Source: Naegleria gruberi
Lineage: Eukaryota
Length of the DNA: 64,000 bases
Assembly: GCA_000004985.1 (NCBI GenBank)
Contig: GG738863.1
Reading direction: 5' to 3' (one strand)
The notes under the pieces were generated by a model. It saw only the letters and a program-made list of their open reading frames with translations. It did no database searches and was not told the origin of the DNA. Position numbers and translations under genes: made by a program. Below, piece by piece: positions 32,697 to 34,909 of this stretch (positions are counted from its first letter, which is position 1; every line of letters begins with the position of its first letter).

Positions 32697-34909
32697 CTAT
32701 TTGAGATTGATTAATTTTTTGAGAAGTCTTGGTGATTTAACCTTTGTGGATGATTGATTCAATTCCTCGTCAAAATCAAAGGTTGTTTCCTTTGTAGGTG
32801 AAAGCATATCTTGGCCATCAATGATGGTATCAAAAACACATTCCAACAAATCTCGAGCAGCTGAGCCATTTGTAGCACTGGTCACTCTGACATCCCTCCA
32901 CAATTGTGCTCGTCTGTCCTCATCTTTGGCCAAATCAATAAATTGTTTCTGAACAAATTTCATCGAATCTCTATATACATATCCACCAATTTCGTAGAAA
33001 AATCTCCATTTTCTCTTTCGAAATTCCCTCTCTTCTGATGAACAAAAAGAGTATGTACTCTGGAGGAAGGACTGATTGGTTGGATCATCATCGCTACTGC
33101 TATCACTGAAAATTGCAGAAGTATTGAGTGGATCGCCAATAGTTATCGAAATTGGTTTCTCTCTTGTTGATATTGTAGAGCTGCCAGTATTGAAAATATT
33201 ACTACCAATTGAAATGGCCTTACTTGACATTGGTGATCTTTCTGTAGATGTGGTGGTAATTGATGAGATGGATGTACAACTATTGAGTGAAGGTAGGAGA
33301 GATTTGGAAGAAGAAAGTGGACTCGTATCTTCACTCTTACCTGTTATCCCTGGCTCAAATAAATGATATCGTTCCTTATATAAGAGATCAACTTGTTCTT
33401 CATCTATGTCTTTCATCAAACTGTAACACAAAGATCTCCAAACAGTGTCACACGTTGCCACAATATACATTTCATAATTTACAGTACTCAGAACACATAA
33501 ATCATGTGCATCCAAGTAAAAGCAAATGTAAATTAAAATATCACTCGGTAACTTTTGCCAATTTTCCTGTCTAATCTTGAATTCCTCTTCCTCTGTGAGC
33601 ATGTGATGATTTTCAACAACAAATCTCGAAGGTGACATTTTAGGAATAAATGATCCAACATTTAACCCATTTTTCTTTTGTTTTTGAATACTGGCACTCC
33701 TTGCTCTTTGAAATCGTTCCATAGTTTTTGAATTTTGTGCACTTTCGAATGTACCAGGTATTCTCTTTCTCTTTTGTTGAATGGTATGTCTCCTCTTGGC
33801 ATCTCCTGCCATTTTGTGAAAGTTTTTAATTGGTTTGTGAAGACGAATGTGTTTTGGTAAATCATCAAATGCTTCACTAATGTCAAAATATTGAATTTTG
33901 TGAAGAAAAACATCCTTCTTGTTGAACACTAGAAATATTGGTACATTCTCAAAACATGATGCATTGACAATTTCCTCAAATAAGAGCAAACTTTCCTTCA
34001 TTCTATTCGATCGATCATCTTCGTAACAAACTTGATTATATTCTGAAAGTGAGACGATGAAAATTATTCCACTTGTTGCTCCAAATAAGTGAACCCACTT
34101 TTTACGTTCATTCCTCTGGCCACCTATTATGATAAATAAATATTTAATATTAGTTCAAAGCTTATTTCAATACATATATTCTTTAAAAAAACCTACCTGT
34201 ATCAAAAACTCTAATTCTATTATTTCTATAAATGCACTCTGTTTCAACAATACCAGTTGTTTTCACATATGATGACATGACATGCTTTGTTTTTGGCATT
34301 GAATATATATGATCCATCTGTTTCACCAAGTCAGGTAAACAATTTTTGCATTCTCGTTATGAAATGTTCATCAACAATCCTCAGAATATGAATAAAATCC
34401 TCACAATCCAATCTAAGAACACTATTTGCAAATTCCTCATTCTCAATCTTGTTTAATTTCTCATCTGGAAACATACTCGAAAGTGCTCTCAGTACAAACT
34501 GTACCATTTGCACGATATTCGAAAGGATTACTTCACGATAAGATAAATATTCATCATTATCAAATCCTCCATTGAATAGTAATTTAACATTCTTGAAAAG
34601 CGTACTCTTCCTATAAGTTCCAATAAAAACAATTTCCAATATCATTATTCGAATTATATTGATCACCATTCATAAATCAAACATAGTACATCTTGTTAGA
34701 AACATGCCTAAATTTCAACAAACTACTCACCCAACACCTCCTGTCCCCAACATGATCACTCGTTGTTGTGGTAAATTTAAAACATTTGATCCGCCATTCG
34801 AATCTCCCAATCCTTTCAATAATTTAGAAGATGAAGACTTTTTAGAAAGCATGGAACGTGATGATGATTTTCTCAGCGAAGATGATGACGAAGATGTACT
34901 CTGACCCAT
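32697..34909 (-). CDS. G-protein alpha subunit-like protein fused to a C-terminal F-box domain (multi-exon)
   Basis: Exon 1 (34909-34721) encodes MGQSTSSS...QQRVIMLGTGGV and ends at a GTGAGT donor. A 110-nt intron (34720-34611) rejoins to give the P-loop GTGGVG|KSTLFKNVKLLF, which is the canonical GxGxxGKST. Helical-domain exon(s) follow, then ...[18 protein letters not shown]...[34 protein letters not shown] (switch II DxGGQRxERKKW) and ...FLVFNKKDVF (NKxD). The ORF then continues for about 300 aa without the TCATDT/alpha5 C-terminus. It contains LPSDILIYICFYLDAHDLCVLSTVNYEMYIVATCDTVWRSL (F-box) and a Ser/Thr-rich tail. The junction around 34310-34335 may hide a tiny intron or a frame error. 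Confidence 0.65.

What the first reader, a model, noticed from the sequence alone, without database searches (positions are those of the whole stretch)
32697..34909. G-protein alpha subunit fused to an F-box and lacking the receptor-coupling C-terminus
The gene encodes a G-alpha with all the expected N-terminal and core elements: an MGxxxS N-myristoylation start, the GTGGVGKST P-loop reconstituted across a 110-nt intron, [12 protein letters not shown] switch II and NKKD. After NKKD the conserved TCATDT (G5) box and the alpha5/C-terminal receptor-contact helix are missing. Instead the ORF continues into a clear F-box (LPSDILIYICFYLDAHDLCVLSTVNYEMY...VWRSL) and a Ser/Thr-rich tail. This would place a heterotrimeric G-protein alpha module directly on an SCF ubiquitin-ligase adaptor, an architecture I do not know from described G-alpha families.
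Basis: partly seen in the sequence, partly recalled or inferred. Interest (0 to 1): 0.7.

Follow-up and report, generated by a model that had tools for sequence, protein, structure and literature searches.

The report
G-alpha protein with embedded F-box
This Naegleria gruberi gene encodes a complete G-protein alpha subunit with an F-box (a ubiquitin-ligase docking motif) inserted inside its GTPase domain; the architecture is real and conserved, but it was already reported in 2021 as "Gpa18" and its function is untested.

Summary
The window is Naegleria gruberi NEG-M, not a dictyostelid. The minus-strand gene 34909..32697 does encode a G-alpha (Pfam 210.9 bits) and an F-box (PF12937, 34.2 bits against a cut-off of 24.3) in one reading frame. 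The claim that G5 and alpha5 are missing is wrong. They lie downstream of the F-box (VRVTSATNG, LLECVFDTII). Removing the 288-residue insert raises the G-alpha score to 229.5 bits and completes the profile (21-333/333). AlphaFold models of two relatives align to 307 and 309 of 310 Gαi1 residues. The F-box is therefore nested in the alphaG-alpha4 loop and does not replace the C-terminus. Herman et al. 2021 (PMC8296547, supplement) already described this for this exact gene: N. fowleri Gpa18, with N. gruberi orthologue XP_002678171.1. Added here: the family also occurs in Willaertia, Acrasis and about 50 environmental clusters. The Naegleria clade keeps G1-G5 but has Tyr in place of the switch-I arginine finger, and no alphaN helix is predicted. 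The window lacks 68 coding nt plus an intron that the published curated N. gruberi sequence contains. The likely function is GTPase-linked SCF ubiquitination, which is an inference.

The parts
32697..34909 (-). Whole gene: the N. gruberi orthologue of N. fowleri Gpa18 (public partial model XP_002678171.1)
   Evidence: ORF and intron reading. 66% identity to N. fowleri FDP41_002612. Conserved synteny helicase / this gene / Tim17. Curated table in PMC8296547.
34731..34909 (-). Exon 1: MGQSTS (N-myristoylation-type start), a Ser-rich N-terminus without a predicted alphaN helix, and the first part of the P-loop (GTGGVG)
   Evidence: MG starts are conserved in N. fowleri (upstream ATG, MGNHSS), W. 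magna and A. kona. Residues 1-40 of the model are disordered.
34611..34730 (-). Intron 1, 120 nt, GTGAGT..TATAG, splitting the P-loop codon G|KST
34340..34610 (-). Exon 2: KST of the P-loop and helical-domain helices up to ...ITRMQKL. If read on, the frame stops at TGA 34333-34331.
   Evidence: Versus N. fowleri, 89 codons: 33 identical, 42 synonymous, 14 replaced.
34339..34340 (-). Frame break. The window lacks 68 coding nt (WFEEP...YQLPVE plus 2 nt) and an intron. This is 166 bp in N. fowleri.
   Evidence: DNA alignment. The segment is absent from the whole window. The published curated N. gruberi protein contains WFEEPCIQKAYHFRHRYQLPVED. The intron position is conserved in another Naegleria sequence, P0205.
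34197..34338 (-). Exon 3 remainder: LPDLVKQMD...VFDTG, with switch I [11 protein letters not shown] at 34275-34243 (Tyr replaces the arginine finger)
   Evidence: Versus N. fowleri, 47 codons: 23 identical, 19 synonymous, 5 replaced.
34124..34196 (-). Intron, 73 nt, GTAGGT..AATAG, splitting DTG|GQR (same position as in N. fowleri)
33855..34123 (-). Start of the last exon: switch II [9 protein letters not shown] (34121-34095), alpha2-beta5, G4 NKKD (33923-33912), and alphaG up to ...AFDDLP
32988..33854 (-). Insertion between alphaG and alpha4 (288 residues, model residues 288-575): a basic/helical segment, the F-box, a conserved linker and a Ser/Thr-rich spacer
   Evidence: Family alignment. 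Deletion test. The model shows disordered linkers around a folded F-box module.
33417..33554 (-). F-box (KLPSDILIYICFYLDAHDLCVLSTVNYEMYIVATCDTVWRSLCYSL)
   Evidence: Pfam PF12937 at 34.2-37.9 bits (cut-off 24.3) and PF00646 at 24.1 bits. The family F-box profile hits FBXO3 (1.6e-8), FBXL5, FBXO4, beta-TrCP, Skp2 and Fbw7 in the PDB. pLDDT is 79-95 in the orthologue model.
33351..33416 (-). Conserved helical linker after the F-box (MKDIDEEQVDLLYKERYHLFEP)
   Evidence: Nearly invariant V and Y columns in alignment A1. Helices 455-465 and 471-485 in the model.
33036..33350 (-). Ser/Thr-rich low-complexity spacer, found only in Naegleria and Willaertia
   Evidence: Alignment. pLDDT below 50 in the orthologue.
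32802..33011 (-). C-terminal part of the G-alpha domain: the conserved KWRFFYEIGG lead-in, alpha4 (32981-32898), beta6 plus G5 RDVRVTSATNG (32897-32865), and alpha5 SAARDLLECVFDTIIDGQDML (32864-32802)
   Evidence: (+21 bits, profile completed).
32697..32801 (-). 34-residue C-terminal tail beyond alpha5 (..TTFDFDEEL.. is conserved with N. fowleri) and the TAG stop

Best explanation
Shown: this locus is the N. gruberi orthologue of Naegleria 'Gpa18'. It is a G-alpha-type GTPase with a helical domain and a complete Ras-like domain (G1-G5 and alpha5). An F-box, a conserved helical linker and a disordered Ser/Thr-rich spacer are inserted in the alphaG-alpha4 loop. It begins with an MGxxxS motif. 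It keeps GTGGVGKST, the switch-I Thr, DTGGQ, NKKD and TSA, but has Tyr where canonical G-alphas have the catalytic arginine. No alphaN helix is predicted. Inferred: the protein is membrane-anchored by myristoylation, binds GTP and hydrolyses it slowly, and is not a conventional Gβγ-coupled subunit. Its F-box docks Skp1-Cul1-Rbx1, so the G-alpha domain serves as the nucleotide-state-dependent substrate-recognition or regulatory module of an SCF ubiquitin ligase ('GTPase-dependent ubiquitination'). The copy in this window has a frame break (68 coding nt plus an intron are missing). This is most likely specific to the assembly or haplotype, because an intact curated N. gruberi sequence is published. 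My confidence in the identity and architecture is about 0.95, and in the SCF-receptor mechanism about 0.4.
Against: There is no experimental evidence for Skp1 binding, GTP binding or any substrate. Many family members have degenerate GTPase motifs, for example GKAT and LMGSQ in the Acrasis clade and THxD or TKxD in place of NKxD, so nucleotide switching cannot be essential to the whole family. No inter-domain error estimates or coordinates were available, so rigid coupling of the F-box to the core is not established. F-box proteins are themselves SCF substrates, so the motif could mainly control turnover. The window sequence as given cannot encode the full protein. Every GT..AG rescue intron is non-consensus at one end: the 58-nt candidate has a GTTGAT donor, and the 124-nt candidate has a GAG acceptor.
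Confidence: 0.45

Rival explanations
1. The F-box is a turnover handle. It recruits SCF mainly to ubiquitinate the G-alpha itself, which would make Gpa18 a short-lived signal transducer rather than a substrate receptor.
For: Autoubiquitination of F-box proteins within SCF is well established (background knowledge). The authors of the F-box GTPase TbFRP proposed exactly this role and observed rapid proteolysis (PMC3593210). The long disordered Ser/Thr-rich spacer next to the F-box could carry phospho-degrons or ubiquitin acceptor sites.
Against: A simple degron would not need the conserved helical linkers on both sides of the F-box or a fixed insertion site kept across about 50 divergent clusters. 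The spacer is absent from compact members such as P0008 and P0010.
Confidence: 0.25
2. The F-box forms a non-SCF Skp1 complex or acts as a scaffold. It would bind Skp1, or another partner, without cullin, as in Rcy1 or RAVE-type complexes, and tie a membrane G-alpha to trafficking.
For: Non-SCF Skp1-F-box complexes exist (background knowledge). The MG start suggests membrane localisation. Naegleria carries many Rab, Rho and Ran GTPases with F-boxes (PMC8296547), which suggests a general GTPase-Skp1 theme.
Against: Nothing here distinguishes this from SCF use. The F-box profile matches canonical SCF subunits best.
Confidence: 0.1
3. This is independent of the mechanism. The copy in this window is a genuinely disrupted allele or a recent pseudogene of N. 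gruberi NEG-M, not an assembly artefact.
For: The window sequence is contiguous, with no N run, and lacks 166 bp relative to N. fowleri, causing a frameshift. The missing peptide is nowhere else in the window. The public model at this locus is only a 122-aa partial protein that starts just after the break. No consensus splice rescues the frame.
Against: Herman et al. give a manually corrected N. gruberi protein that contains an N. gruberi-specific version of the missing 23 residues, and they do not flag it as a pseudogene. About 520 codons downstream remain open in a 34% GC genome and show a synonymous-biased substitution pattern. Any disruption must therefore be very recent or limited to one haplotype.
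Confidence: 0.3
4. One reading: a C-terminally truncated G-alpha that has lost G5 and alpha5 and carries a C-terminal F-box and tail.
For: Pfam and phmmer alignments of the unedited protein stop soon after NKKD, which is what a reader without tools would see.
Against: The deletion test, the family alignment and two structure models show that G5 and alpha5 lie after the insert. The same conclusion is published.
Confidence: 0.02

Closest known systems
Naegleria Gpa18 (Herman et al. 2021, BMC Biol 19:142, PMC8296547; N. fowleri V212 g10873.t1 = FDP41_002612; N. gruberi XP_002678171.1)
   Same: It is the same gene family, and for N. gruberi the same gene. It is a G-alpha with an F-box nested within the GTPase domain, and its C-terminal G-alpha fragment was recognised by manual alignment. 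The authors suggest 'GTPase-dependent ubiquitination'.
   Different: The published account is a short remark in a supplement, with no structural, motif, distribution or functional analysis. The window differs from the published curated protein by lacking 23 codons (68 nt) plus an intron.
Canonical heterotrimeric G-alpha subunits (e.g. human Gαi1, PDB 2GTP/1GIA)
   Different: It has an insertion of about 290-340 residues carrying an F-box in the alphaG-alpha4 loop. The arginine finger is Tyr, the P-loop is Ras-like (GGVGKS), no alphaN helix is predicted, and there is a 34-residue tail beyond alpha5.
TbFRP, the FYVE-F-box-Ras-like GTPase of Euglenozoa (PMC3593210)
   Same: It combines an F-box and a GTPase domain in one protein, in a related discoban lineage, and has a proposed link to SCF and rapid turnover.
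   Different: Its GTPase is Rab-like, not G-alpha. Its F-box lies N-terminal to the GTPase domain rather than inside it. It has a FYVE domain, which is absent here. Its authors report no N. gruberi orthologue.
RhoBTB proteins (Rho GTPase plus BTB domains, Cul3 adaptors)
   Same: The logic is the same: a Ras-superfamily GTPase domain is fused to a cullin-adaptor domain. A BTB plus G-alpha protein also turned up among the hits (P0044).
   Different: It is a different GTPase family and a different cullin system (BTB/Cul3 rather than F-box/Skp1/Cul1). The domains are in tandem rather than nested. The comparison rests on background knowledge.
Yeast Gpa1 and SCF(Cdc4) (background knowledge, not tested here)
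   Same: It is a G-alpha with a large lineage-specific insert that connects it to SCF-dependent ubiquitination.
   Different: In Gpa1 the insert lies in the helical domain and is the ubiquitination target. Gpa1 is a substrate and has no F-box of its own.

Membership tests
G-protein alpha subunit (Pfam PF00503) | Significant match to the family profile over the whole domain | tested here: met
   The unedited protein scores 210.9 bits (cut-off 48.8). With the insert removed it scores 229.5 bits and covers profile positions 21-333 of 333.
G-protein alpha subunit (Pfam PF00503) | Ras-like domain with G1-G5 nucleotide-binding boxes | tested here: met
   G1 GTGGVGKST, G2 Thr in KTTGIVE, G3 DTGGQ, G4 NKKD, G5 TSA.
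G-protein alpha subunit (Pfam PF00503) | All-helical domain inserted between G1 and switch I | tested here: inconclusive
   The domain is present and confidently modelled in the N. fowleri orthologue. In the window, the end of alphaD, alphaE and the alphaE-alphaF loop (23 codons) are missing and the frame shifts. The published curated N. gruberi protein has them.
G-protein alpha subunit (Pfam PF00503) | Catalytic Arg in switch I and Gln in switch II | tested here: not met
   The Gln is kept (DTGGQ). The Arg (R178 of Gαi1) is Tyr in Naegleria, Willaertia and P0003.
G-protein alpha subunit (Pfam PF00503) | C-terminal beta6-alpha5 unit (receptor-coupling helix) | tested here: met
   Alpha5 is present and packs canonically. 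Whether the extended tail still couples to receptors cannot be tested here.
G-protein alpha subunit (Pfam PF00503) | N-terminal alphaN helix and Gβγ binding (heterotrimer formation) | tested here: not met
   No helix is predicted before beta1. Residues 1-40 (N. fowleri) and 1-38 (P0008) have pLDDT below 50. Binding itself cannot be tested here.
F-box proteins / SCF substrate receptors | F-box motif above the curated threshold | tested here: met
   PF12937 scores 34.2-37.9 bits against a cut-off of 24.3, and PF00646 scores 24.1 against 20.5 for the isolated segment. 30 of 31 relatives also match. The family profile hits Skp1-bound F-boxes in the PDB.
F-box proteins / SCF substrate receptors | Binding to Skp1 and assembly with Cul1-Rbx1 | not testable with these tools
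   This needs co-folding with Naegleria Skp1 or biochemistry.
F-box proteins / SCF substrate receptors | A substrate-binding domain C-terminal to the F-box | tested here: inconclusive
   No WD40, LRR, Kelch or other domain was found. The only folded partner is the G-alpha domain itself, which the F-box interrupts.
TbFRP-type F-box GTPases | N-terminal FYVE domain and a Rab-like GTPase domain | tested here: not met
   There is no FYVE hit, and the GTPase is G-alpha. The authors found no N. gruberi orthologue.
Naegleria Gpa18 orthologue group | One-to-one orthology with N. fowleri Gpa18: best hit, shared synteny, same nested architecture | tested here: met
   The best hit has 66% identity over 90% of the query. 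The helicase and Tim17 neighbours are shared. The insertion site and two intron positions are the same. The published table pairs Gpa18 with XP_002678171.1.

The most novel reading that the evidence does not exclude
Gpa18-type proteins are nucleotide-gated SCF substrate receptors. The G-alpha domain, activated by GTP or possibly by a receptor, would select membrane targets such as receptors, effectors or regulators for Skp1-Cul1-dependent ubiquitination. G-protein activation would then be read out directly as ubiquitination rather than through second messengers. The family would be a conserved signalling device of Heterolobosea and of related uncultured protists.
Probability: 0.3. Interest if true: 0.75.

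Novelty: already known. Interest (0 to 1): 0.4.

Why it matters
A G-alpha that is itself an F-box protein would connect two major eukaryotic regulatory systems, heterotrimeric-type GTPase switching and cullin-RING ubiquitination, within one polypeptide. The architecture is real, under purifying selection, and more widespread than the single published remark suggests. It occurs in Naegleria (including the pathogen N. fowleri), Willaertia, Acrasis and about 50 environmental clusters. It is therefore a well-defined, untested candidate for GTPase-dependent ubiquitination. For genome annotation, the public N. gruberi model is a 122-aa fragment, the W. magna model is mis-spliced, and the window has a frame break at this locus.

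Full report
Source and gene model. Four long ORFs in the window are exact matches to Naegleria gruberi NEG-M proteins (EFC45320, EFC45424, EFC45319 and EFC45326) on a 467,654-bp scaffold. The window has 34% GC. It is therefore heterolobosean, not dictyostelid. The gene lies on the minus strand.

- Exon 1 is 34909-34731 (MGQSTS...GTGGVG).
- A 120-nt GTGAGT..TATAG intron follows (34730-34611).
- Exon 2 starts at 34610 (KSTLFKN...).
- A block in a different frame follows (34338-34197: LPDLVKQMD...[11 protein letters not shown]...VFDTG).
- A 73-nt GTAGGT..AATAG intron follows (34196-34124).
- One long last exon (34123-32697) runs from GQRNERKKW through NKKD, the F-box and the Ser/Thr-rich region to a TAG stop.

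Pfam finds G-alpha (210.9 bits, cut-off 48.8) and F-box-like PF12937 (34.2 bits in the whole protein and 37.9 bits for the isolated segment, cut-off 24.3), plus PF00646. The F-box falls at residues 148-193 of ORF 32697-34001, as predicted. PDB sequence searches give G-alpha chains at E of about 1e-40. A profile of the family's F-box and linker hits bona fide Skp1-bound F-box proteins: FBXO3 at 1.6e-8, then FBXL5, FBXO4, beta-TrCP, Skp2 and Fbw7. The F-box and NKKD share one uninterrupted exon, so the two-gene refutation does not apply.

Aligned with human Gαi1 (sequence supplied from memory) and eleven relatives, the C-terminal ~70 residues match alpha4, beta6/G5 and alpha5. KFVQKQFIDLAK aligns with AYIQCQFEDLNK, VRVTSATNG with YTHFTCATDT, and LLECVFDTII with FVFDAVTDVII. 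I tested this three ways.

- The N-terminal part alone scores 208.3 bits and reaches profile position 278 of 333. With residues 288-575 removed, the score is 229.5 bits and the match covers 21-333 of 333. With the C-terminal segment shuffled, the score is 209.7 bits and the match stops at 281.

The F-box is therefore nested in the alphaG-alpha4 loop of a complete G-alpha.

Main-text searches found nothing. The supplement of Herman et al. [quoted passage not shown] Table S8 lists N. fowleri Gpa18 ('G alpha ... with F-box domain', V212 g10873.t1) with N. gruberi XP_002678171.1 as its orthologue. It gives a manually corrected N. gruberi protein that begins MGQSTSSSSSSLRK..., which is this gene. 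It is the only G-alpha with an F-box in that table.

Exon 2 read onward stops at TGA 34333-34331, and the next conserved block is in another frame. In N. fowleri the corresponding region reads ...QKLWFEEPAILRAYHYRHR | 98-nt intron | YQLPVEDLPDLIKQMD. Willaertia has the same peptide without an intron. DNA alignment shows the window lacks 166 bp between CAAAAATTG and TTTACCTGAC. The missing stretch is 48 nt of exon, the intron and 20 nt of exon. That is 68 coding nt, so the frame shifts. The peptide is nowhere else in the window. Frame-restoring GT..AG introns exist only with a poor donor (58 nt, GTTGAT) or a poor acceptor (124 nt, GAG). Meanwhile the five confirmed introns of the two orthologues all start GTRNGT. 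Codon comparison with N. fowleri is strongly synonymous-biased on both sides of the break:

| Region | Identical codons | Synonymous | Replacement |
|---|---|---|---|
| Exon 2 | 33 | 42 | 14 |
| Exon 3 | 23 | 19 | 5 |
| Exon 4 | 200 | 149 | 118 |

. Any loss is therefore recent. The published curated N. gruberi protein contains QKL-WFEEPCIQKAYHFRHRYQLPVED-LPDL. This is an N. gruberi-specific version, four residues different from N. fowleri, and the entry is not flagged as a pseudogene. An intact sequence therefore exists in N. gruberi data. The public model at the locus is only a 122-aa partial protein starting at MPKTKH, just after the break. I could not determine whether the window's deletion is an assembly error or an allele, because ten window-derived models were absent from the protein collection.

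Family and distribution. The best hit is N. fowleri FDP41_002612 (66% identity over 90% of the query), with the same neighbours: a DEAD/DEAH helicase upstream and a Tim17-family gene convergent downstream. Willaertia magna, Acrasis kona and several metagenome and Logan proteins share the G-alpha plus F-box-like domains. I searched a 150-position profile of the family-specific segment (F-box to alpha5) against 1.84 billion cluster representatives. It found 50 proteins at E<=1e-10, and most matched the whole profile in one stretch near their C-terminus. Of 31 long members, 30 have Pfam G-alpha and 30 have F-box-like. The only named sources are heteroloboseans. The rest are environmental, for example P0008 on a gene-dense, intron-poor eukaryotic contig.

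Functional reading. The Naegleria and Willaertia clade keeps G1 (GTGGVGKST, a Ras-like P-loop), the switch-I Thr, DTGGQ, NKKD and TSA. It replaces the switch-I arginine finger (R178 of Gαi1) with Tyr. From established G-alpha enzymology, this predicts GTP binding with slow intrinsic hydrolysis. No alphaN helix is predicted, so classical Gβγ coupling is doubtful. MG starts are conserved (MGQSTS here, MGNHSS at an upstream N. fowleri ATG, MGAQLS in Acrasis), which suggests myristoylation. Other clades have degenerate motifs: GKAT and LMGSQ in the Acrasis clade, and THxD or TKxD in place of NKxD. The F-box and two flanking conserved helical segments are the most constant family-specific features.

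The most likely mechanism is that the F-box docks Skp1-Cul1, and the G-alpha domain provides nucleotide-state-dependent substrate recognition or regulation. This is the same idea as the 'GTPase-dependent ubiquitination' suggested by Herman et al. Every step beyond the architecture is an inference. There are two rival mechanisms. One is an autoubiquitination or turnover handle, as proposed for the euglenozoan F-box GTPase TbFRP (PMC3593210). The other is a non-SCF Skp1 complex.

Verdict. The new contributions here are a quantitative and structural demonstration of the nested topology, the wider distribution of the family, the motif analysis and the detection of the frame break in the window.

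Noticed in passing
window 34339-34340 (minus strand), context 34300-34400: The window lacks 68 coding nt plus an intron (166 bp in N. fowleri). The loss removes the alphaE region of the helical domain and shifts the frame. A published curated N. gruberi protein contains the missing 23 residues, so the window may carry an assembly error or a deleted haplotype.
   Followed up: partly
window 33857-34296 (public partial model P0204): The public N. gruberi annotation of this locus is only a 122-aa 'predicted protein, partial' (MPKTKH...AFDD). 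It misses the N-terminus, the F-box and the C-terminal G-alpha part, so domain-architecture surveys based on it would not see the fusion.
   Followed up: yes
L002 2880-5056 (Willaertia magna JBEGDK010000031.1): The NCBI model ABK040_007798 (P0002) is mis-spliced. The genomic frame contains a contiguous ...[42 protein letters not shown]... that the model skips. An upstream MGQNTQ start and the P-loop exons are also omitted.
   Followed up: partly
L001 about 5965-6000 (N. fowleri VFQX01000030.1): The model FDP41_002612 probably starts 12 codons too late. An in-frame upstream ATG gives MGNHSSSHHHSS, which restores the MGxxxS myristoylation-type start seen in N. gruberi.
   Followed up: partly
protein P0044 (JGI metagenome, 863 aa): Precomputed Pfam domains are BTB (PF00651) plus G-alpha. 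This is a second kind of cullin-adaptor/G-alpha fusion, with Cul3-type logic as in RhoBTB. P0033 (EukProt) carries G-alpha plus LIM.
   Followed up: no
proteins P0004, P0005, P0009, P0011, P0013, P0053, P0072, P0083: A subclade that includes Acrasis kona has GKAT in place of GKST and L/V-x-G-S-Q in place of DxGGQ, yet keeps the arginine finger and the F-box. These are probably pseudo-GTPases or have altered Mg2+/GTP handling.
   Followed up: partly
window 31482-32591 (+) and 35720-37999 (-): The flanking genes are syntenic with N. fowleri. A Tim17-family protein (PF02466) converges on the 3' end with only about 105 bp between the stop codons, and a DEAD/DEAH-box helicase lies upstream on the same strand. 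Neither window ORF matches a public protein exactly, which suggests multi-exon or differently modelled genes.
   Followed up: partly
PMC8296547 Additional file 10 (N. gruberi sheet): Dozens of N. gruberi Rab-like GTPases, and some Rho and Ran paralogues, carry N-terminal F-boxes. One Ras and several Arf or Arf-like proteins carry BTB domains. GTPase-cullin-adaptor fusions are a genome-wide theme in Naegleria and not a peculiarity of this locus. The same reannotation counts 60 G-alpha genes in N. gruberi.
   Followed up: partly
protein P0021 residues 1-170 (JGI metagenome, 607 aa): This member of the F-box G-alpha family has an extra N-terminal region that looks like a small-GTPase fragment (...IVIFLFSLED...HNKKDL...) ahead of the G-alpha P-loop.
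   Followed up: no
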